From the NCBI GenBank assembly GCA_035602245.1, contig DATNMO010000007.1, positions 5,981-69,980 of the forward strand: 64,000 bases of DNA. The letters run 5' to 3'. The translations under genes and the position numbers were made by a program. This stretch comes from Gemmatimonadales bacterium. GTDB lineage: Bacteria; Gemmatimonadota; Gemmatimonadetes; Gemmatimonadales; GWC2-71-9. Within the stretch, counting starts at the first letter, position 1. Each line of letters opens with the position of its first letter. Shown one piece after another: positions 2,261 through 64,000 of the stretch. Below the pieces are notes generated by a model that was not told where the DNA came from, ran no database searches, and saw nothing but the letters and a program-made list of their open reading frames with translations.

Positions 2261-2387
2261 TCTCACCGGCAGCAAACGGTGGCGTGCCTGGCGGGCAGTC
2301 CATGTCTGAATCACCCGGCGATGATCGATGCCTCACGTATCGGCGGCCCCGCCAGCGCCCCAGCGTTCTCGCATAGCCACACCCTCA

Positions 2388-2756
<369 letters not shown>

Positions 2757-2822
2757 CTCCGCTGTTTTCCATCGGAGTGATTCCTCGGACCATCAAACCA
2801 CGCACGCATCGGTTTTCGCCTT

Positions 2823-2942
<120 letters not shown>

Positions 2943-38448: not shown

Positions 38449-38520
<72 letters not shown>

Positions 38521-48424: not shown

Positions 48425-48498
48425 GCCCCTGTAGCTCAGGTGGATAGAGCAGCGGTTTCCTAAACCGTTGGCCGGGTGTTCGAGTCACCCCAGGGGCA
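48425..48498 (+). tRNA. tRNA-Arg (CCT)
   Basis: Manual cloverleaf: acceptor gcccctg/caggggc, D gctc/gagc, anticodon loop ttCCTaa, T arm gggtg-ttcgagt-caccc. Confidence 0.9.
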
Positions 48499-56058: not shown

Positions 56059-57014
56059 CGCCCGTTCTTCTCTCTCAACCGCTCCACCTCCCGCTCCAAC
56101 GTCCGCAGCTCTTCCCTCATCCCCGCCAGCATTTCGCCCACGAAGCCGAAGCCGAACAGCACCACGCCGGAAATCACCAGGACCATGATCAGGTCGAGGA
56201 GGGGCCGGAAGCCCACGTGTGGCGGACCGAATCGCAGGTAGAGCGACACGGCGCCGACGAGCACTCCCAGCAGAAATAGCAGCGCGCCCGCGAAGCCGAA
56301 GAACATCATCGGCTTGCGGCCGAAGCGCAGCTGGAACCAGACCGACAGGAGATCGAGAACCCCCACCGGGATCCGCCCGATCCCGAACTTCGAGGTCCCC
56401 GCACGCCGCGGGTGGAGCGGTACCGGGCGCTCGGCGAGGCGGAATCCCTGCGCCGCGGCGATCACGACCATGAAGCGGTGCCAATCCGGGCGGGTGGGCA
56501 GCGCCTCCATCACCTCGCGGCGGTAGGCTTTTACGGAGTTCAGGTCGGTGACGCGCACCCCGAAGAGCCAGCGGCACAGGGCGTTGTACACGCTGGAGAC
56601 GAACCGCTTTTCGTATTGGCCCTGCTTGGCCCCGGTAACGATGTCCGCCTGCCCTGCCAGAATGGGCGCGACGAGACCGGGGATCTCGGCCGGCAGATAC
56701 TGCAGGTCCGCGGGATAGAAGACTAGCACGCGGCCGCGCGCTGCGTCGGCGGCCGACTTGAGCGCGTCCGCGATGCCCCGCTGGGTCCGGTGGGTGACGA
56801 TGCGAACGAAGGCGTGCTTGGCAGCGAGCTCCTCGAGTACCCGCGCCGTCCCGTCGTGGCTGCCGTCGTTGACGATCACCACCTCGCACGCGTAGGGCAG
56901 CGGCAGCAGCGCCTCACGGGTCAAGCGCACGAACTCGGGGAGGTTCTCCGCCTCGTCCTTCGCGGGCACGAGCACGCTGACCTCGGGGACCGAAGACGGG
57001 CTGGCGAGGCTCAC
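56055..57014 (-). CDS. Membrane-anchored GT2 (GtrB/ArnC-like polyprenyl-phosphate glycosyltransferase)
   Basis: VLVPAKDEAENL, VNDGSHDGT, and two C-terminal TM helices. A GTG start at 57014 overlaps the rpoN stop (GTGA). Confidence 0.82.
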   Translation of the reverse strand: MSLASPSSVPEVSVLVPAKDEAENLPEFVRLTREALLPLPYACEVVIVNDGSHDGTARVLEELAAKHAFVRIVTHRTQRGIADALKSAADAARGRVLVFYPADLQYLPAEIPGLVAPILAGQADIVTGAKQGQYEKRFVSSVYNALCRWLFGVRVTDLNSVKAYRREVMEALPTRPDWHRFMVVIAAAQGFRLAERPVPLHPRRAGTSKFGIGRIPVGVLDLLSVWFQLRFGRKPMMFFGFAGALLFLLGVLVGAVSLYLRFGPPHVGFRPLLDLIMVLVISGVVLFGFGFVGEMLAGMREELRTLEREVERLREKNGR

Positions 57015-58474
57015 AGGCGCTTGCGCATCCGGGCCGGCAAAATGCCGAGCTGATCGCGGTATTTGGCGACGGTGCGCCGGGCGATCTTCACCCCTTTGCG
57101 CTCGAACATCTCCACGATCTGCTGGTCCGTGAGCGGCGCCTTCTCGGGCTCGTCGTCCACGAGCTTCTGAATCTGCGATTTGATCGACCGGGCACTGGCG
57201 TCCTCTCCGGTCGTGGTCGAGAGGCCGCTCGAGAAGAAGAATTTCAGCGGCAGCAGGCCGCGGGGCGTCTGCACGTACTTCTCGTTCGTGACCCGGCTCA
57301 CGGTGCTCTCGTGCATGCTGATGACGTCCGCCACCTCGCGCAGCGTGAGCGGCTTCAGGTGATCGATGCCCTTCTCGAAAAAGTCCCGCTGCCGGTCCAC
57401 GATGAAGTTCATCACCTTGAGCATCGTCTGGCGGCGCTGCTCGATCGCCTGAATCATCCAATGGGCGCTGTTCAGCCGCTGATTGATGAACTCCTTGCTT
57501 TCGGTGTCGTATTTCTTCTTGTCGCGGGCGATCTCCTGGTACGTCTTGGAAATGCGCAGCCGCGGCAGCCCGCTGTCGTTCAAGAAGACGTGGTACTTAT
57601 CGTCGATTTTCTCGACGATCAAGTCGGGAATGATGTACGCGTCATTGCTGGCCGAGTGCTGCAAGCCGGGCTTGGGATCCAGCCGGGCGAGCTCGTCGGC
57701 GGCGCGCTGCACCTCGTCGGGGGCGAGGCCAAAGCGCTTGCCCAGGTCGCTCCAGCGGTGGGCGATGAGATCGTCGAACGCATCCTTCACGAGGCGGTAC
57801 ACCAGCGAGTCGGTCCGCTTCAGATTCTCGAGCTGCACCAGCAGGCACTCGCGCAGGTTGCGCGCCCCCGTTCCCGGGGGATCGAGCTGCTGGATGACGC
57901 GGAGCATCTCCTCCGTCTCGGCCATCGTGAAGGGCACGACGTTCAGGTCGCTCTCCGACTCGGCCTCGTACTCTTCGAGCAGCTGGTTGGCGCCCTTGGT
58001 GATGCGCTCGAGATCCGCCTGCAGGTAGCCGTCCTCCCCGATGTTACCGAGGAATTCTTCCGCCAACAGCTGTTGCCGCGGCGTCAAGTCGAGCATCTGG
58101 GTCTGCTCGCGCAGGTAATCGATCAGGTCCTTGCTCTCGACCGTCACCGGCTCGACGTATTCCCGCGCGTCGCTGTACGTGCCGCTGGGCACGCTGTGCT
58201 CGGTGCGGTCGGCAAGCAGGATGTTCTCCCAATCGGGCTCGTCCTCGGCGGGCTTGTCTTTCTCGGGCTTGTTCTGCTGCTGCTCGGCGGCGGTCGCTTG
58301 GACTTCTTCCTCGGGCTCGATCAGCTCGAGGAACGGGTTGCCCAACAGCTCTTGCTTGAGGTGCTGCTCCAGGTCGAGCAGCGGCATATACAGGAGGTCC
58401 ATCGCCTGATAGAGGCGTGGATTGATCCGCAGGTCCTGGCGGAGGGCCGCGTGCTGGTGCAGGCCGGTCTTCAT
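57011..58474 (-). CDS. rpoN: RNA polymerase sigma-54 factor
   Basis: N-terminal Gln/Leu region and the C-terminal RpoN box ARRTVAKYR. Confidence 0.93.
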   Translation of the reverse strand: MKTGLHQHAALRQDLRINPRLYQAMDLLYMPLLDLEQHLKQELLGNPFLELIEPEEEVQATAAEQQQNKPEKDKPAEDEPDWENILLADRTEHSVPSGTYSDAREYVEPVTVESKDLIDYLREQTQMLDLTPRQQLLAEEFLGNIGEDGYLQADLERITKGANQLLEEYEAESESDLNVVPFTMAETEEMLRVIQQLDPPGTGARNLRECLLVQLENLKRTDSLVYRLVKDAFDDLIAHRWSDLGKRFGLAPDEVQRAADELARLDPKPGLQHSASNDAYIIPDLIVEKIDDKYHVFLNDSGLPRLRISKTYQEIARDKKKYDTESKEFINQRLNSAHWMIQAIEQRRQTMLKVMNFIVDRQRDFFEKGIDHLKPLTLREVADVISMHESTVSRVTNEKYVQTPRGLLPLKFFFSSGLSTTTGEDASARSIKSQIQKLVDDEPEKAPLTDQQIVEMFERKGVKIARRTVAKYRDQLGILPARMRKRL

Positions 58475-59667
58475 GCCGCGGGTGACAAGCGCGAGCGCAG
58501 CCGCGCGGTGAGGGTGGGGCCGAGGTAGAGGTCGGCCACGCGGTCGTCGAACACGAGCTGGCGGACCGTGCCGGCGACCTGTACCCGGCCTTCGAACATG
58601 ATGTAGGCCCGATCAACGATATCCAGCGTCTGCTCCACGTTGTGGTCGGTGATGAGGACGCCGATGCCGCGATGCCGCAGGCCGGCGACGATGGTCTGGA
58701 TGTCGTGTACGGCGATCGGATCGACGCCCGCAAACGGCTCGTCGAGGAGCAGGAACTTGGGTTCGGTCACGAGCGCGCGCGTGATCTCGAGCCGCCGCCG
58801 CTCGCCGCCGGAGAGCTGATACGCCTTCTGTTGGCGCAGGTGTTTGATCGCCAGTTCGTCGAGCAGAGACTCCAGGCGCCGCTTCCGCTCCTCCTCGTCG
58901 ATGTTCTGCGTCTCGAGAATGGCCAGCACATTCTCCTCGACGCTGAGCTTGCGAAACACCGAGGGTTCCTGCGCCAGGTAGCCGATGCCGGCGCGTGCGC
59001 GCTGGTACATCGGGAGCGTCGTGATCTCCCGGCCATCGAGCCGGATCTTGCCCTCTTCGGGCCGGATCAGCCCGGTGATCATGTAAAACGTCGTGGTCTT
59101 CCCCGCCCCGTTCGGCCCCAGCAGGCCCACGATCTCGCCCTGGGCGAGTTCGACGGAGACGTTGTTGACGACCCGGCGGCCTTTATACGCCTTGACCAGG
59201 TTCTGCGCCTCGAGCCGGCTTCCCCCCCGCACCACCGGGTGCTCCCCGCTCACTGCTTCGCTGCGGGAGACGGTCTGCTCGGCGAGCTCCAGGAAGCGGC
59301 GCGCGGCCGCGTCACGCGCGGGGGGCATGCTCGCCCACACGTCTGGCGCGAAGGCGACCGGCGCCTCGCCCCACAGGGAACCGATCGGCAGCACGAGCAC
59401 CTTGAGCATGGCCAGCCGCGGCAGCACCGATGTTGCGAGATACGCGCGCGCATCGTCCACCGAGAGGTGGCCGGCGTCGGGCAGCTTCGCGCCCTTGGTG
59501 TCCGCGCGCAGCTTGAGGAATTCCTCCCGGTACGCGACGGCAAGGTCGCCAAACGTGGCGCGGCCCTGGTCGTCAGCGATGCGCGCGAGCGCGGCTGCCG
59601 CGAGCGCGAGCGACGAGTCGCGCGTGGCGAACAGCTCGGTAAACCGCTCGGGAGGAGAGGCCGTCAT
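58471..59667 (-). CDS. lptB: LPS export ABC ATPase LptB with an unrecognised ~150-aa N-terminal extension
   Basis: C-terminal 245 aa carry Walker A GPNGAGKTT, LSGGERRRLEI and LLLDEPFAGVDP. The ORF starts at ATG 59667 in an ATGA overlap with the lptA-like stop. The extension has high GC3 codons and no in-frame stop. Confidence 0.8.
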   Translation of the reverse strand: MTASPPERFTELFATRDSSLALAAAALARIADDQGRATFGDLAVAYREEFLKLRADTKGAKLPDAGHLSVDDARAYLATSVLPRLAMLKVLVLPIGSLWGEAPVAFAPDVWASMPPARDAAARRFLELAEQTVSRSEAVSGEHPVVRGGSRLEAQNLVKAYKGRRVVNNVSVELAQGEIVGLLGPNGAGKTTTFYMITGLIRPEEGKIRLDGREITTLPMYQRARAGIGYLAQEPSVFRKLSVEENVLAILETQNIDEEERKRRLESLLDELAIKHLRQQKAYQLSGGERRRLEITRALVTEPKFLLLDEPFAGVDPIAVHDIQTIVAGLRHRGIGVLITDHNVEQTLDIVDRAYIMFEGRVQVAGTVRQLVFDDRVADLYLGPTLTARLRSRLSPAA

Positions 59668-61019
59668 GGGATCGGCGGAGGGGGTGGGGCCACGGGGGGG
59701 GGCGTCGCCGTACGGGTGCTGTCGGCCGCCACGGCGGGCCGGGGCTCGAGATTGACGCCGTCCGCCTTGCCGGCCACCACGACACGCTCGATCCGGTCGC
59801 GCTTCATCGCGACCGCGATCTGTGCGCCGCGGGAGTAGTTGATCGCCGGCCCGGCAGTGGAATCGCGGGTGTTGTAATTGTGCGTCAGCGCGCGCGCCGA
59901 GCCGCGAGCGAGGACCTGCCGCAGGCGGGATTGCTCGTGGCCGGCGGAGTCCTGTTCCTGCGCGAAGTGCGCCGTGAGGGTATCGCCGCTGATCCAGTCG
60001 GTGTCGGCCGCGTGGCTGGTCGAGTCCCGCTTGGCGGTGGAGAGCGCGTGGCCGAATGCCCGCGTTTCCGTCAGCACCTCGCCCGGCGAGTCGATCGCCA
60101 GCGAATCCGCCTGAATGGTGTTGAGCGTGGACACGGCGTTGGGGCGTGTGGAATCTCCCCACGCAAACGTCTGCTGCAGCATCCGGTCTGCGACGACCAG
60201 ATGAATGGTGTCAGCGGTCAGGACCCAGTCGGCGCCGGTGGCCTTCCCGTGTCCCAGGGCCTTCACGAGGCGCACCTCGCGCTGCTCCAGTGCCAGCTCG
60301 ATCCGCGTGCCCACGAGCCTGTAACCTTTCGCGCCTGTTCCCGGACGCCCTCTCCCCTCGACGCTGGGGCTGCCGACGAGGACGCCGAACCCCTGGATCT
60401 GATCGAGGAGCATCGAATCGGAGCGCGACACAAAGTCGCTGCGGTCCACGGTGACTTTCCCGCCCCCCCACATGCGGTCGTCCCCTTTGAAGCGGATCCG
60501 GTCGGCGACGATGATGTAGGGCTCGGCCGAGTCGCCGCCCTCCGCACGATACTCGACCGTGGGACGGGACGTGGCGTACATCTCGACCGTATCGCGAATG
60601 CCCTTGGCGGCGCGCCAATACCGGAGATTCGGTCCGCGCAGCACGGAGCCTGTGCGCCGGTTCACGGCCACGACTCTGTTGTGCGCCTCGAGCCGCTCGT
60701 CGCGGAGAAAGTAGGATGCGTAGTTCGCGTCTAGTGCGAGCCCGGTATCGCGGATCCGCACGCGGCCGATGAGGTCGAGCCGCCCCAGCGCCGTGTAGTG
60801 CGCGAAGCTATCGGCCGAGATCGTGCTGTTCGTTCCATCACAATGCGCCAGCACGCCGCCGCCGCCGTGCAACGTCTTCAGCCCGGCCGCATCCGTGATT
60901 TCGTGGTAGTGTCCCATCGAATCGATGGCGACTCGGCAGGGCCGCCCCCCGGCCGTATCGGGCGGGGCTCCCTGCTGCAGTAGCAGCGCAACGACGAGGA
61001 GGGACGCGGTCGGCATCAT
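59664..61019 (-). CDS. lptA: Large OstA/LptA-like periplasmic protein (451 aa) with Pro-rich C-terminus
   Basis: Signal peptide and repeated OstA-type beta-jellyroll-like strands. Position between lptC and lptB. Tail TPPPVAPPPPPIP. Confidence 0.65.
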   Translation of the reverse strand: MMPTASLLVVALLLQQGAPPDTAGGRPCRVAIDSMGHYHEITDAAGLKTLHGGGGVLAHCDGTNSTISADSFAHYTALGRLDLIGRVRIRDTGLALDANYASYFLRDERLEAHNRVVAVNRRTGSVLRGPNLRYWRAAKGIRDTVEMYATSRPTVEYRAEGGDSAEPYIIVADRIRFKGDDRMWGGGKVTVDRSDFVSRSDSMLLDQIQGFGVLVGSPSVEGRGRPGTGAKGYRLVGTRIELALEQREVRLVKALGHGKATGADWVLTADTIHLVVADRMLQQTFAWGDSTRPNAVSTLNTIQADSLAIDSPGEVLTETRAFGHALSTAKRDSTSHAADTDWISGDTLTAHFAQEQDSAGHEQSRLRQVLARGSARALTHNYNTRDSTAGPAINYSRGAQIAVAMKRDRIERVVVAGKADGVNLEPRPAVAADSTRTATPPPVAPPPPPIP

Positions 61020-61594
61020 TGATTCGGAAGGATGAACTGTCCGCCCGTGCCCCGTGGATGCTTGGCGGTGACGTTTTTGAACTCGGGGTCCGACGTGAAC
61101 CCTTCACCTTCGATGTGCCGGTCCGGCGCGTCGAACACGAAGGCCTTGTCGGAGGTCACTTCATTGCGCGCCTGGTTGTAATTCATCGCCTCGGTCCGCA
61201 TCGTGCCGCCGTCCTTGTTGCGAACGACGACCACGTTGCCGCGCGCCTCCATGTCGCCCGTGCGCCAGTGATGCGTCCCCTCCCGGGCGGTGAGCGTCGA
61301 GGTCGCGATGCCGATCGCGTCGTAGAACGTCACGTGGAGATTGCGGAGCTCGGCCCGCTGCGTGCCGGAAAAAAAATACGCGGTGTCCGCGCGGACCCGG
61401 GCACGCTGCACGCCCGCTTCCGTCACATAGTGGGTCATGCCGATCAGCACCTGGTCGGCGCTGTCCAGGGCAGCCTGGGTCGCCGTCACGGGCGTGCCGC
61501 TCTTGCAGGCAGCGACGAGGAGCAGCAGGAGACCGCGGCTGACCCCGGGGCGGCGCCCCGGGGTTAGCCGAGACCCGAATCTGTTCGAGCTCAC
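61016..61594 (-). CDS. lptC: LptC-like protein (lipoprotein-type signal)
   Basis: LLLLLVAAC lipobox-like signal, LptC-like beta-jellyroll length, synteny kdsD-lptC-lptA-lptB. Confidence 0.7.
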   Translation of the reverse strand: MSSNRFGSRLTPGRRPGVSRGLLLLLVAACKSGTPVTATQAALDSADQVLIGMTHYVTEAGVQRARVRADTAYFFSGTQRAELRNLHVTFYDAIGIATSTLTAREGTHHWRTGDMEARGNVVVVRNKDGGTMRTEAMNYNQARNEVTSDKAFVFDAPDRHIEGEGFTSDPEFKNVTAKHPRGTGGQFILPNQ

Positions 61595-62577
61595 ACGGCA
61601 CCCGCTTTCATCAAGTCATGCAGATGCACGATCCCCACCACCTGCTTTCCCCCGTCGAGCACCGGCAGCGCCATGATACCGTGGCGTTCCATGACACTCA
61701 CCGCCGCGCCGGCGAGGTCCTCGGGTGTCGCAACCTTCGGTGTCTTCGTCATGACATCGCCGACGGGTATGTCGAGAAAGTTGTCCGTGCGCTCCATCAG
61801 GCGCGTGAGATCTCCAGCCGTGACGACGCCCGCGAGCGTACCCTTGCCATTCCGATCCACGACGACCACGGTGCCGCGCTTCTCGGCAAGCAGCACCACG
61901 CACTCACGCATCGGGCGGTCGGGCGTGAGGGTGGGAAGGTCCTGGGTGAGCATCACGTCCGCGACGCGCAGCAGCAGCTTGCGGCCCAACGCACCGCCCG
62001 GGTGGAGGGCGGCGAAGTCTTCGCGGCGGAACCCTTTCACCTCGAGCAACGTCACGGCGAGGGCGTCGCCGAGGGCGAGCGCGACGGTGGTGCTGGCCGT
62101 GGGCGCCAGGGTTTCGGGACAAGCTTCATCGACTACGGACGCGTCGAGGACGACGGTCGCCTGGCGGCCGAGCGGCGAGTCGGCTTCGCCGGTGAGGGCG
62201 ATGAGCGGTACGCCCAGGCGCTTGAGCTGGTTGACGAGGCCGAACAGCTCGTCGGACGCGCCGCTCTTCGAGAGCACGATCGCCACGTCGTCCCGGCTCA
62301 CGATCCCGAGGTCGCCGTGCAGCGAGTCCACCGGATGCAGGAACGTGGCCGGTGTGCCCGTCGACGTGAAGGTCGCCGCGATCTTGCGGGCGATCAGTCC
62401 CGATTTGCCGACGCCCGAGACGATGACGCGGCCCTTGGCCTGGGCGAGGATGTCGATCGCGCGGCCGAACGCCGGCCCCAACGTGTCGGCGAGGCGCTGC
62501 ACGGCAGCGGCCTCCAGGGCGAGCACGCGTTTGCCGCGATCGACGAGCTGCTGGGCAGCAGAAGCGACTTCACGCAC
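61591..62577 (-). CDS. kdsD: Arabinose-5-phosphate isomerase KdsD/KpsF
   Basis: SIS domain VSGVGKSG plus tandem CBS domains. A GTG start at 62577 overlaps kdsA by 8 nt. Confidence 0.88.
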   Translation of the reverse strand: MREVASAAQQLVDRGKRVLALEAAAVQRLADTLGPAFGRAIDILAQAKGRVIVSGVGKSGLIARKIAATFTSTGTPATFLHPVDSLHGDLGIVSRDDVAIVLSKSGASDELFGLVNQLKRLGVPLIALTGEADSPLGRQATVVLDASVVDEACPETLAPTASTTVALALGDALAVTLLEVKGFRREDFAALHPGGALGRKLLLRVADVMLTQDLPTLTPDRPMRECVVLLAEKRGTVVVVDRNGKGTLAGVVTAGDLTRLMERTDNFLDIPVGDVMTKTPKVATPEDLAGAAVSVMERHGIMALPVLDGGKQVVGIVHLHDLMKAGAV

Positions 62578-63394
62578 GGACGGTCTCCCCCCCTCGGGCG
62601 CGCTGCCAGATGTCGACGGCGAGGCCCACGATCCCGGCGAGCTGATCGAGCGGCACCATGTTGGGGCCGTCGGAGGGTGCGCGGGATGGGTCGGGGTGCG
62701 TCTCGATGAAGAAGCCGTCAGCCCCGGCGGCCGCGGCGGCATACAGGAGCGGCGGAATGAACGCACGCTGGCCGCCACTCGAGCCGTCGGCGCCCTGCCC
62801 CGGCTGCTGGACCGAATGCGTGGCATCGAAGATCACGGGCGCGTTGCAGGCCGCGCGCAACCGTGGGAAGCTGCGCATGTCCACCACCAGGTCGCCGTAG
62901 CCGAAGAACGTGCCCCGCTCCGTCACCGCGACTTCCGGCGCTCCGCCGGCGCGGACTTTCTCGACGGCGCCCCGCATATCCTCGGGGGCCATCCACTGGC
63001 CCTTCTTGATGTTCACAGGCCGGCCAGCCTTCCCCGCGGCCACGAGCAGGTCGGTCTGGCGACAGAGGAATGCGGGGATCTGCAGCACATCCGCGACGCG
63101 CGCAGCGGCGGTGACCTGGTCTGGCTGGTGGACGTCGGTGAGGATCGGAAGCCCGGTGGCGGCGCGGACCTTCTCGAGCGCGCGCAGGCCGGCTTCGAGG
63201 CCGGGCCCGCGCGGCGCCTTCAGCCGCGAGCGGTTGGCCTTGTCGTACGAGGCCTTGTAGATGACGACGATGCCGAGCTTGACCGCAACCTCGGCCAGCG
63301 CCTCACCGACGCGCACGTTGAGGTCGTCGGTTTCGACGACGCACGGCCCCGCGATGAGAAACGGGGCGGCCCCCCCGCCGAACCGCTGGGCCAT
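62570..63394 (-). CDS. kdsA: 3-deoxy-8-phosphooctulonate (KDO-8-P) synthase
   Basis: FLIAGPCVVE, KASYDKANRS, DATHSVQ. Confidence 0.92.
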   Translation of the reverse strand: MAQRFGGGAAPFLIAGPCVVETDDLNVRVGEALAEVAVKLGIVVIYKASYDKANRSRLKAPRGPGLEAGLRALEKVRAATGLPILTDVHQPDQVTAAARVADVLQIPAFLCRQTDLLVAAGKAGRPVNIKKGQWMAPEDMRGAVEKVRAGGAPEVAVTERGTFFGYGDLVVDMRSFPRLRAACNAPVIFDATHSVQQPGQGADGSSGGQRAFIPPLLYAAAAAGADGFFIETHPDPSRAPSDGPNMVPLDQLAGIVGLAVDIWQRARGGETVRA

Positions 63395-63395
63395 G

Positions 63396-64000
63396 TCAGT
63401 CGGTGAGCTCGGCGAGCGCGCGCGAGGTCCCGGCGGCGCTGTCGGCGCGGGGCTGCCGCTTCCGGTGATCCAACGCGGCGCCCACGAACCCGGCGAACAG
63501 CGGGTGCGGGCGCATGGGCCGCGATTTGAGCTCGGGGTGGAACTGGCAGCCGATGAACCAGGGATGATCCGGGAGCTCGATCATCTCGACCAGCGAGCCG
63601 TCGGGCGACAGTCCCGAGCAGCGCATGCCATACTCGGCGAGCACGTCGCGGTAGGCGTTCGACACCTCGTAGCGGTGCCGGTGGCGTTCGCTCACCTCGG
63701 CGGCGTTGTACGCCTGCGCCACGCGCGACCCGGGCCGCAGCCGGCAAGGGTAAGCGCCGAGCCGCATCGTCCCGCCCATCTCTTGAATCCCTTCCTGGGA
63801 TCGCATCAGGGCGATCACCGGGTTCTCGCACTCGGGCTCGAACTCGCTCGAGTTCGTGTCCGGAATCTTGCAGACGTTACGGGCGAATTCGATGATCGCC
63901 GTCTGCAGGCCGAGGCAGATGCCGAAGAACGGCACCTTGTGCTCGCGCACCCAACGGATGGCCTCGAGCATGCCTTCGACGCCCCGCACGCCAAAGCCGC
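63396..64000 (-). CDS. pyrG: CTP synthase, C-terminal glutamine-amidotransferase part (continues beyond the window)
   Basis: [19 protein letters not shown] catalytic Cys, HRHRYEV. Confidence 0.92.

What the first reader, a model, noticed from the sequence alone, without database searches (positions are those of the whole stretch)
58471..59667. LptB carries an unrecognised ~150-aa N-terminal domain, translationally coupled to lptA
Canonical LptB is about 240 aa. Here the Walker A region starts about 170 codons into a 398-codon ORF. The first ATG of that ORF (59667) forms an ATGA overlap with the stop of the upstream lptA-like gene. The extra segment is MTASPPERFTELFATRDSS...RRFLELAEQTVSRSEAVSGEHPVVRGG. 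It has the strong third-position GC bias of real genes in this genome, has no in-frame stop, and matches no motif I can recognise. An accessory domain fused to the cytoplasmic motor of the LPS bridge, sitting directly upstream of rpoN, could be a regulatory or coupling module.
Basis: partly seen in the sequence, partly recalled or inferred. Interest (0 to 1): 0.55.

Follow-up and report, generated by a model that had tools for sequence, protein, structure and literature searches.

The report
LptB with extra winged-helix-like domain
The ATPase that powers lipopolysaccharide export in this Gemmatimonadota genome carries a real, conserved and previously undescribed 140-residue N-terminal domain, found across the sampled orders of the phylum and often lost from genome annotations; what it does is still unknown.

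Summary
ORF 58471-59667 (-) encodes 398 aa: a canonical LptB ATPase (residues ~150-398; TIGR04406, 357 bits) preceded by ~140 residues and a short flexible linker.

- **The extension is coding.** GC3 is 0.87-0.93 in frame. dN/dS is about 0.1-0.3. It is fused in frame in 80 of 80 related genomes.
- **The start is conserved.** An ATGA or GTGA overlapping the stop of the upstream lptA-like gene is present in 78 of 82 loci. An internal start is not conserved: 28 of 73 orthologues have no start-type codon at the domain boundary.
- **The domain is unannotated.** It has no Pfam, NCBIfam or PDB sequence match. AlphaFold predicts an acidic winged-helix-like fold, and structural matches are only weak.
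- **It looks phylum-wide.** Five of five Gemmatimonadota LptBs annotated at 242-258 aa (Gemmatimonadaceae and Longimicrobiales included) hide the same domain in a 404-452-nt false intergenic gap.

Function is not shown. I favour a tethered cytoplasmic protein-interaction, dimerisation or regulatory module on LptB2FG. DNA binding is disfavoured, since pI is 4.5-5.6 and the wing has no basic residues. I rate it a new variant of a known kind, of moderate interest.

The parts
59251..59667 (-). N-terminal accessory domain of LptB (residues 1-139). It is acidic and winged-helix-like. Predicted elements: H5-14, H18-30, E36-38, H39-57, H70-87, E~91, E103-106, H108-113, H118-139.
   Evidence: - In-frame GC3 of 0.87-0.93.
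- 88 database homologues, and 109 genome loci of which 80 were examined.
- Median dN/dS 0.29, and 0.10-0.24 for the closest pairs.
- AF2 model with pLDDT 76 and pTM 0.71. The same secondary structure appears in the full-length model.
- Weak winged-helix structural matches.
- pI of 4.5-6.1 in all homologues.
59221..59250 (-). Flexible linker (residues 140-149, AVSGEHPVVR).
   Evidence: - pLDDT is below 50 at residues 136-145 in the full-length model.
- In distant relatives the linker varies in length and is Pro/Ala/Thr-rich.
- A start-type codon at the V145/V146 columns occurs in only 31/73 orthologues, and 28/73 have none in residues 136-156.
- SD-like motifs are rare upstream of these codons.
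58471..59220 (-). Canonical LptB nucleotide-binding domain (residues 150-398 plus stop). Walker A is at residues 184-191 (59095-59118), LSGGE at 285, Walker B LLLDEP at 306, and the switch His in TDHN at 340-343.
   Evidence: TIGR04406 LPS_export_lptB scores 2.6e-107 and 357.5 bits against a cutoff of 240. PF00005 scores 2.9e-40.
59664..59667 (-). ATGA start/stop overlap between the lptA-like gene and lptB.
   Evidence: Read directly from the sequence. ATGA (56 loci) or GTGA (22 loci) is conserved in 78/82 loci. In 66 of these the TGA ends an upstream ORF of at least 300 codons. The overlap is also present in all 5 'short-annotated' loci.
59664..61019 (-). Upstream 451-aa periplasmic protein, a divergent long LptA/OstA-like protein with an N-terminal hydrophobic signal and a Pro-rich C-terminal tail.
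   Evidence: It sits between lptC and lptB. 15/30 orthologues weakly hit PF03968 LptD_N/LptA, with a best E-value of 6.9e-5. The window protein itself has no Pfam, NCBIfam or PDB hit.
61016..61594 (-). lptC, with a predicted lipoprotein signal (lipobox LLVAAC, Cys30).
   Evidence: TIGR04409 LptC_YrbK scores 8.2e-20. The lipobox Cys is conserved in relatives.
57011..58474 (-). rpoN (sigma-54). Its ATG overlaps the lptB stop (ATGA at 58471-58474).
   Evidence: Sigma54_AID, Sigma54_CBD and Sigma54_DBD Pfam hits. The overlap is read from the sequence.

Best explanation
**What it is (shown).**
- lptB here is a single gene whose product has two parts.
- The first part is a ~140-residue acidic domain that is predicted to be winged-helix-like and is specific to Gemmatimonadota.
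- A short flexible linker joins it to a complete LptB ATP-binding cassette with all catalytic motifs intact.

**How it is made (inferred).**
- Translation starts at ATG 59667.
- That start overlaps the stop of the upstream lptA-like gene, so ribosomes finishing that gene probably reinitiate on lptB.
- The same 4-nt overlaps link lptC, the lptA-like gene, lptB and rpoN, which suggests the four genes are translated as one coupled chain.

**What it most likely does (inferred, not shown).**
- The domain sits in the cytoplasm, tethered to the N-terminal edge of each LptB subunit of the LptB2FG transporter.
- I propose it acts as a protein-protein interaction module.
- It could self-associate to clamp the two ATPase subunits, or it could dock a cytoplasmic partner. 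Either would tune ATP-driven LPS extraction.
- This would resemble the accessory regulatory domains of other ABC ATPases such as MalK, MetN and ModC.
- It would not be a DNA-binding domain.

My confidence is about 0.9 for the anatomy and about 0.3-0.4 for the mechanism.
For: **Coding and fused**
- GC3 is 0.87-0.93 and continuous from 59667 into LptB.
- The domain lies in frame, 175-186 residues upstream of Walker A, with no intervening stop in 80/80 genome loci.
- More than 120 protein clusters of 389-404 aa exist. They include the identical NCBI protein, annotated as LptB at 398 aa.
- dN/dS is 0.10-0.24 against the closest relatives, compared with 0.05-0.12 for the ATPase part.

**Start site**
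- An ATGA or GTGA overlap with the upstream stop is present in 78/82 loci.
- 28/73 orthologues have no start-type codon at the domain boundary.
- There are no SD-like motifs at the annotated internal starts.

**Breadth**
- Distant members keep the synteny and the fusion.
- 5/5 LptBs annotated as short (a Gemmatimonadaceae MAG and a Longimicrobiales MAG included) contain the domain in an unannotated 404-452-nt gap.
- For four of these the HMM E-values are 1.7e-24 to 2e-12. For the Longimicrobiales one the E-value is 4.7e-6 with a broader profile. All are computed at Z = 1.8e9.

**Fold**
- The AF2 model has pLDDT 76 and pTM 0.71, with wH topology H-E-H-H-E-E flanked by helices.
- All the top Foldseek hits are winged-helix domains: Orc1/Cdc6, the Sir3 dimerisation wH, the Scc1 kleisin WHD, MukE and MarR.

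**Flexible tether**
- The linker has pLDDT below 50 and the full-length model has pTM 0.45.
- The linker varies in length and is Pro/Ala-rich in relatives.

**Not DNA-binding**
- pI is 4.5-6.1 and net charge is -1 to -10 in every homologue.
- The predicted wing (residues 90-106) has no K or R in the window protein and is hydrophobic in the close relatives; distant members do carry Arg there.
Against: - No experiment or computation here shows any interaction, dimerisation or effect on ATPase activity.
- The structural matches are weak: the best PDB E-value is 0.05 and TM-scores are 0.4-0.6.
- The full-length model gives no confident docking of the domain onto the ATPase.
- Acidity does not strictly exclude nucleic-acid binding.
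- Translation from 59667 is inferred from conservation, not measured. A minority of lineages do have in-frame GTG or ATG codons near the boundary, so a second, shorter isoform cannot be excluded there.
- DNA of cultured strains (Gemmatimonas, Gemmatirosa) could not be fetched.
Confidence: 0.6

Rival explanations
1. Annotation artefact. Translation starts only at an internal codon near the domain boundary (GTG 59230-59235 here), and the upstream 440 nt is a non-coding leader or spacer that merely stays open in a GC-rich genome.
For: - In this window, GTG GTG lies 6-9 nt downstream of a GGGGAG motif.
- PGAP annotates many Gemmatimonadota LptBs at 242-265 aa.
- The frame is open by chance for 165 further codons upstream of 59667.
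Against: - GC3 and dN/dS show a protein-coding region under purifying selection.
- The protein sequence is conserved down to ~30-40% identity across orders.
- 28/73 orthologues have no start-type codon at the boundary, and valines there are often GTC.
- The annotated internal starts are inconsistent (CTG, GTG, GTG, ATG, ATG). One lies inside the first beta-strand of the ATPase. None has an SD-like motif.
- An open frame of ~140 codons in a 60% GC genome (L086) is unlikely by chance (about 1% by my own calculation, not a tool run).
Confidence: 0.03
2. The domain is a DNA-binding winged helix-turn-helix. It would make LptB a transport-coupled transcription regulator, for example of the kds-lpt-rpoN cluster itself.
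For: - The fold is predicted to be winged-helix, and MarR-like and forkhead domains are among the weak hits.
- The helix order resembles MarR (α1-α2-β1-α3-α4-β2-β3-α5-α6).
- The gene lies directly upstream of rpoN and is coupled to it. The lptB-rpoN linkage is widely conserved and unexplained (PMC3162934).
Against: - The domain is uniformly acidic: pI 4.5-6.1 and net charge -1 to -10.
- The wing has no basic residues.
- The loop between the two 'HTH' helices is 12 residues long and low-confidence, which is atypical for an HTH.
- There is no hit to any Pfam HTH family, even at E <= 10.
- The protein is expected to be held at the membrane in LptB2FG.
Confidence: 0.1
3. The domain is a functionally separate small protein that became fused to LptB only for stoichiometric co-production. 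It is either released by proteolysis at the linker or acts independently of the transporter.
For: - The linker is flexible, low-complexity and variable.
- No confident domain-domain packing was predicted (pTM 0.45).
- The domain evolves about 2.5 times faster than the ATPase.
Against: - No free-standing homologue was detected among 1.84 billion representatives. Every hit long enough to judge continues into LptB.
- The fusion is kept in every locus examined across the phylum. This argues for a function that needs physical linkage.
Confidence: 0.1
4. Dual initiation. In this lineage both the long form (from 59667) and a canonical-length LptB (from GTG 59230-59235) are made, giving mixed or regulated LptB dimers.
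For: - In this window and a few close relatives (L001, L009), an SD-like GGGGAG or GGAGAG precedes in-frame GTG codons.
- The VSGEHPVV motif is conserved in the close clade.
Against: - The feature is not conserved. Only 31/73 orthologues have a start-type codon at those columns, and very few have an SD-like motif.
- Other genes of this operon have no SD-like motif, so SD-driven initiation may not be the norm in this organism.
Confidence: 0.1

Closest known systems
LptB (YhbG) of Escherichia coli and other Proteobacteria, the ATPase of the LptB2FGC LPS extractor (NCBIfam TIGR04406, ~240 aa)
   Same: - Residues 150-398 are a full-length match above the curated cutoff.
- Walker A, LSGGE, Walker B and the switch His are intact.
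- The gene order kdsD-lptC-lptA(-like)-lptB-rpoN is the same.
   Different: - It carries ~149 additional N-terminal residues that form an independent domain.
- The model family has none. The profile is 239 positions long, and it starts aligning at residue 152 of this protein.
ABC-transporter ATPases with accessory regulatory domains: the MalK C-terminal regulatory domain, the MetN C2/NIL domain, the ModC TOBE domain, and the OpuAA/ProV CBS domains. This comparison rests on my own knowledge and was not tested here.
   Same: An extra soluble domain is fused to the nucleotide-binding subunit on the cytoplasmic side. In those systems the domains dimerise or bind ligands or regulators, and so control closure of the ATPase dimer.
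   Different: - Those domains are C-terminal and have beta-rich or CBS folds.
- This one is N-terminal, mainly helical and winged-helix-like, with no sequence relation to them.
- No ligand or partner is known.
Winged-helix protein-interaction domains: the Orc1/Cdc6 C-terminal WHD, the Sir3 C-terminal wH dimerisation domain (3zco), the kleisin WHD bound to the ABC-type SMC head (6qpq), and MukE/ScpB
   Same: - The predicted topology is H-E-H-H-E-E.
- These are the best structural matches (Foldseek probability 0.9-0.99; TM-score normalised by target 0.53-0.63).
- Several of them mediate dimerisation or bind an ABC-like ATPase head rather than DNA.
   Different: - The E-values are not significant (>= 0.05), and sequence identity is 10-14%.
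- The loop between helices 2 and 3 is long.
- No homology can be claimed.
MarR-family dimeric wHTH regulators
   Same: The size (~140 aa) and the order of secondary-structure elements are the same, with N- and C-terminal helices flanking a winged-helix core. In MarR these flanking helices form the dimer interface.
   Different: - There is no Pfam MarR or HTH hit.
- TM-scores are poor (0.2-0.35).
- The domain is acidic.
- The helix-turn-helix geometry is atypical.

Membership tests
LptB (TIGR04406 LPS_export_lptB) | Full-length match to the equivalog profile above its curated cutoff | tested here: met
   357.5 bits against a cutoff of 240. Residues 152-385 align to profile positions 2-236 of 239.
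LptB (TIGR04406 LPS_export_lptB) | Intact ABC catalytic motifs (Walker A, signature LSGGE, Walker B, switch His) | tested here: met
   GPNGAGKT at 184, LSGGE at 285, LLLDEP at 306, TDHN at 340.
LptB (TIGR04406 LPS_export_lptB) | Genomic context with lptC and lptA, upstream of rpoN | tested here: met
   - lptC matches TIGR04409 at 8.2e-20.
- The gene between lptC and lptB is weakly LptA/LptD_N-like in 15/30 orthologues.
- rpoN follows.
- The same order is seen in all related loci inspected.
LptB (TIGR04406 LPS_export_lptB) | Single-domain protein of ~240 aa | tested here: not met
   The protein is 398 aa, with a conserved 149-residue N-terminal extension.
LptB (TIGR04406 LPS_export_lptB) | Assembles with LptF/LptG and powers LPS extraction | not testable with these tools
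   No lptF or lptG candidate is adjacent in the window. Biochemistry is required.
Winged-helix fold | Topology α1-β1-α2-α3-β2-β3 | tested here: met
   The AF2 model shows H18-30, E36-38, H39-57, H70-87, E~91 and E103-106, with pLDDT 76. The same elements are reproduced in the full-length model. This is a prediction, not a solved structure.
Winged-helix fold | Significant structural similarity to solved winged-helix domains | tested here: inconclusive
   All the top PDB hits are WH domains, but the best E-value is 0.05 and TM-scores are 0.4-0.6. The best BFVD hit has E 9.8e-4 and TMq 0.60, to an uncharacterised DUF262 phage protein.
DNA-binding wHTH regulators (e.g. MarR) | Sequence-profile match to an HTH-clan family | tested here: not met
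   None of the 19 members has a Pfam hit to any HTH family at E <= 10. There is also no NCBIfam hit and no PDB sequence hit.
DNA-binding wHTH regulators (e.g. MarR) | Basic recognition helix and wing surface | tested here: not met
   pI is 4.5-6.1 and net charge is -1 to -10 in 73 close and 12 diverse homologues. The wing segment of the window protein has no K or R.

The most novel reading that the evidence does not exclude
The N-terminal domain is a new kind of cytoplasmic gate for the LPS extractor.
- In Gemmatimonadota, LptC appears to be a lipoprotein. The lipobox Cys is conserved in every lineage checked. Such an LptC would lack the transmembrane helix that, in E. coli, inserts between LptF and LptG and restrains LptB ATPase activity.
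- Under this reading, the two tethered winged-helix-like domains take over that coupling role from the cytoplasmic side. They would do so by dimerising under the ATPase dimer, or by sensing a cytoplasmic signal.
- Because lptB is translationally coupled to rpoN, this could also link LPS export to sigma-54.
Probability: 0.12. Interest if true: 0.75.

Novelty: new variant of a known kind. Interest (0 to 1): 0.5.

Why it matters
- **A conserved motor with an add-on.** LptB is one of the most conserved and best-studied envelope ATPases, and it is an antibiotic target. In my literature searches I found no description of an accessory domain on it.
- **A likely regulatory input.** A whole phylum of abundant soil bacteria has kept an extra domain on this motor. 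That implies an input, or a structural requirement, for LPS export that the proteobacterial model systems do not have.
- **A testable handle.** It gives a concrete way to ask how LPS extraction is coupled to the state of the cytoplasm.
- **An annotation error to fix.** Many Gemmatimonadota lptB genes are annotated about 140 codons too short, which leaves a false 400-450-nt intergenic region. This could be corrected with a simple profile.
- **A new domain family.** The domain would also be a new entry for the domain databases.

Tried and rejected
- **Sequence searches on residues 1-155 found nothing meaningful.** I tried Pfam, NCBIfam and PDB sequences, both with the single protein and with a 19-member profile.
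- **A structure prediction with the richer alignment A2 was refused.** A2 was built from proteins translated from the related loci.
- **The replacement alignment A3 gave only a mediocre full-length model.** pTM was 0.45 and parts of the ATPase had low pLDDT, so it says nothing about docking.
- **Model coordinates are not exposed.** Surface conservation and electrostatics could therefore not be mapped.
- **Internal-start hypothesis tested and rejected**.
- **'Separate small gene with a lost stop codon in this assembly' rejected.** The fusion is present in 80/80 loci.
- **My first reading, that the domain is confined to one Gemmatimonadales subclade, was overturned.** It rested. LptBs annotated as short turned out to hide the domain.
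- **No negative control for the LptC correlation.** A test of lipoprotein-type LptC against presence of the N-domain needs lineages without the domain. None was found inside the phylum, so the co-occurrence may simply reflect shared ancestry.
- **Literature searches found nothing.** I searched for an LptB N-terminal extension, winged helix, and Gemmatimonadetes.
- **No promoter-like site was found in 56500-63500, and none of the four terminator-like sites lies at the lptA-lptB junction**.
Full report
**1. The observation**

On the minus strand, an ORF ending at 58471 has its first ATG at 59667 and encodes 398 residues.
- The ATG forms ATGA with the TGA stop of the upstream 451-aa gene (59664-61019).
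- The lptB stop in turn overlaps the rpoN start (ATGA at 58471-58474).
- The LptB equivalog profile TIGR04406 aligns to residues 152-385 at 357.5 bits against a cutoff of 240.
- Pfam ABC_tran aligns to residues 167-313.
- Walker A is at residues 184-191, LSGGE at 285, Walker B at 306, and the switch histidine at TDHN 340.
- So about 149 residues precede a complete LptB.

An open frame is not evidence in this genome. The window is 67.7% GC, and the same frame stays open for 165 more codons upstream while it overlaps the lptA-like gene. What is informative is codon composition. Third-position GC is 0.87-0.93 without interruption from 59667 to the stop. The position carrying the high GC switches frame exactly at ~59667, where the upstream gene ends.

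**2. Is the extension a conserved, translated part of LptB?**

The extension is conserved and always fused:
- Residues 1-155 alone recover 88 proteins at 50-85% identity. Most are fragments, and those long enough continue into the ATPase.
- A scan of one genome per species found 109 relatives. Nearly all of the 80 loci fetched are labelled Gemmatimonadales or Gemmatimonadota MAGs.
- In 80 of 80 loci the domain lies in frame, 175-186 residues upstream of Walker A, with no stop between.
- The identical protein is in NCBI as a 398-aa 'LPS export ABC transporter ATP-binding protein [Gemmatimonadales bacterium]'. More than 120 further clusters are 389-404 aa long.
- Nei-Gojobori dN/dS against 72 orthologues has a median of 0.29 for the N-domain (0.10-0.24 for the closest pairs). 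The ATPase part has a median of 0.11. This is purifying selection, about 2.5-fold more relaxed than on the ATPase.

The start site is conserved:
- An ATGA (56 loci) or GTGA (22 loci) lies just upstream of the first conserved motif in 78 of 82 loci.
- In 66 of these, the TGA closes an upstream ORF of at least 300 codons.
- No SD-like motif precedes this start. None precedes the starts of the lptA-like gene or rpoN either; the 25 nt before the lptC GTG do contain an AAAG-type purine run.

- 28 of 73 orthologues have no ATG, GTG or TTG anywhere in the boundary region (window residues 136-156).
- Only 31 have a start-type codon at those two columns.
- The valines are often encoded by GTC.

**3. 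How widely is it distributed?**

An exhaustive profile search of 1.84 billion representatives returned only 171 proteins. Every one long enough to judge is an N-terminal fusion to LptB. Distant members (30-40% identity in the domain) keep two features:
- the synteny pyrG-kdsA-kdsC-kdsD-lptC-(lptA-like)-lptB-rpoN;
- the 4-nt overlap.

This first suggested a restricted clade, but a further search changed the picture. A search with the ATPase core of a distant member listed 120 Gemmatimonadota LptBs annotated at only 160-265 aa, the complete ones at 237-265 aa. They include Gemmatirosa kalamazoonensis, a Gemmatimonas sp., Gemmatimonadaceae MAGs and Longimicrobiales MAGs.

I fetched five of these, with annotated lengths of 242-258 aa. 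All five show an unannotated 404-452-nt 'gap' between the lptA-like gene and the annotated lptB start. In every case the gap has these properties:
- It is open in the lptB frame.
- It begins with ATGA or GTGA on the upstream stop.
- It has coding-type GC3.
- It encodes a homologue of the domain.

Four score E = 1.7e-24 to 2e-12 against the narrow profile at a search space of 1.8e9. The Longimicrobiales one scores 4.7e-6 with a broader profile.

The annotated internal starts are inconsistent: CTG, GTG, GTG, ATG and ATG. One lies inside the first strand of the ATPase, and none has an SD-like motif.

The domain is therefore probably ancestral to Gemmatimonadota and is often annotated away. I could not fetch DNA of the cultured strains.

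**4. What is the domain?**

There is no match in Pfam, NCBIfam or PDB sequences.

AlphaFold2 with a 19-sequence alignment gives pLDDT 76 and pTM 0.71. The predicted elements are H5-14, H18-30, E36-38, H39-57, H70-87, E~91, E103-106, H108-113 and H118-140. This is a winged-helix topology with flanking helices.

Foldseek results:

| Library | Best hits | Scores |
|---|---|---|
| PDB | All the top hits are winged-helix domains: Orc1/Cdc6 WHD, Sir3 dimerisation wH, Scc1 kleisin WHD, MukE/F, ROQ, forkhead, MarR | E >= 0.05, TM 0.4-0.6 |
| BFVD | An uncharacterised DUF262 phage protein | E 9.8e-4, TMq 0.60 |

The fold assignment is therefore plausible but not proven, and no homology can be claimed.

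Other properties of the domain:
- It is acidic in every homologue: pI 4.5-6.1 and net charge -1 to -10.
- Its predicted wing is hydrophobic, with no basic residue in the window protein.
- Across the 83 sequences of alignment A2 the invariant residues are D17, S19, R47, P83, R84 and L85, and W111 is nearly invariant. In the broader 13-sequence set that adds the Longimicrobiales member, only S19, R47, R84 and L85 stay invariant.
- The linker has low confidence in the full-length model, whose pTM is 0.45. In distant relatives it varies in length and is Pro/Ala/Thr-rich.

**5. Most likely mechanism**

Shown:
- One gene encodes one two-domain protein.
- The ATPase is intact.
- The start/stop overlap is conserved.
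- The domain is conserved across the sampled orders of the phylum.

Inferred:
- Translation is by termination-reinitiation along a chain of overlapping genes (lptC, lptA-like, lptB, rpoN).
- The domain hangs in the cytoplasm from the N-terminal edge of each LptB in LptB2FG.
- It works through protein contacts, either self-association or partner recruitment, to stabilise or regulate the ATPase dimer.
- This is the role accessory domains play in MalK, MetN and ModC (my own knowledge, not tested here).

DNA binding is disfavoured by charge and by the lack of any HTH-family signal, but it is not excluded.

A more speculative link concerns LptC. LptC in these genomes has a conserved lipobox cysteine. 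A study of LptC reports that most LptC homologues across phyla are predicted to stay bitopic and that few are predicted lipoproteins (PMC9544173). From my own knowledge, the transmembrane helix of E. coli LptC modulates the transporter. The N-domain could compensate for the absence of that helix. Both traits are present in every lineage I checked, so I have no negative control.

**6. Comparison with what is known, and novelty**

The ATPase part is an unambiguous LptB. The extension has no described counterpart in LptB, and four literature searches found nothing relevant. I class it as a new variant of a known kind: LptB with an undescribed accessory domain. It comes with a practical annotation correction for the phylum.

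I score interest as moderate (0.5). It is a genuine, conserved oddity on a very well-studied motor, but no mechanism is demonstrated, and only a few cultured isolates exist to test it in.

Noticed in passing
window 61016-61594 (-), Cys30 at about 61505-61507; also L001-L090: LptC carries a lipobox (LLVAAC|KSG). The cysteine is conserved in 27 of 51 relatives by a strict pattern. It is also present in all the distant loci where the LptC N-terminus could be read (L081, L084, L086-L090), Longimicrobiales included. LptC would then be a lipoprotein without the transmembrane helix that regulates LptB2FG in E. coli. PMC9544173 reports such variants as uncommon.
   Followed up: partly
window 59664-61019 (-): The gene in the lptA position encodes 451 aa, about 2.5 times a canonical LptA by my recollection. 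It has a Pro-rich C-terminal tail and no Pfam, NCBIfam or PDB hit of its own. Only 15/30 orthologues weakly match PF03968. It may be a multi-domain or tandem periplasmic bridge protein.
   Followed up: partly
window 58471-61594 (-); L082: lptC, the lptA-like gene, lptB and rpoN are chained by 4-nt start/stop overlaps. No SD-like motif precedes the starts of the lptA-like gene, lptB or rpoN. No sigma-70-type promoter match was found, and no terminator-like site at the lptA-lptB junction. This suggests obligatory translational coupling of LPS transport genes with sigma-54.
   Followed up: partly
L086 4267-4688; L087 4597-5000; L088 4549-5000; L089 4555-5000; L090 4558-5000: There is a systematic start-site error in public annotations. 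Gemmatimonadota lptB is annotated at 242-258 aa in these records, which leaves a 404-452-nt false intergenic gap that actually encodes the N-domain. One annotated start is CTG, and one lies inside the first strand of the ATPase.
   Followed up: yes
P0088 (metagenomic protein, 173 aa): This is a single sequence in which N-domain residues ~33-141 are cleanly deleted (…ALARIAD|VSGEHPVV…) while the start and the LptB part remain. It is either a natural deletion variant or an assembly artefact.
   Followed up: no
window 58642-59838 (+); P0089: An antisense ORF of exactly 398 aa runs opposite lptB, a typical high-GC shadow ORF. The C-terminal tail of database protein P0089 resembles a translation of this antisense frame, so that record is probably a chimeric or inverted assembly.
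   Followed up: no
window 2364-2941 (+); 38449-38520; 48425-48498: The 3' end of a 23S rRNA gene and a 5S rRNA gene lie near the window start. The 23S match is split at 2461-2481. There are also two tRNA genes.
   Followed up: no
L006 (DATGVE010000001.1, 2761 bp): A contig binned as 'Candidatus Eisenbacteria' carries an N-domain-LptB that is 82% identical in the N-domain to the window protein. It is probably a mis-binned Gemmatimonadales contig and not evidence for the domain outside the phylum.
   Followed up: no
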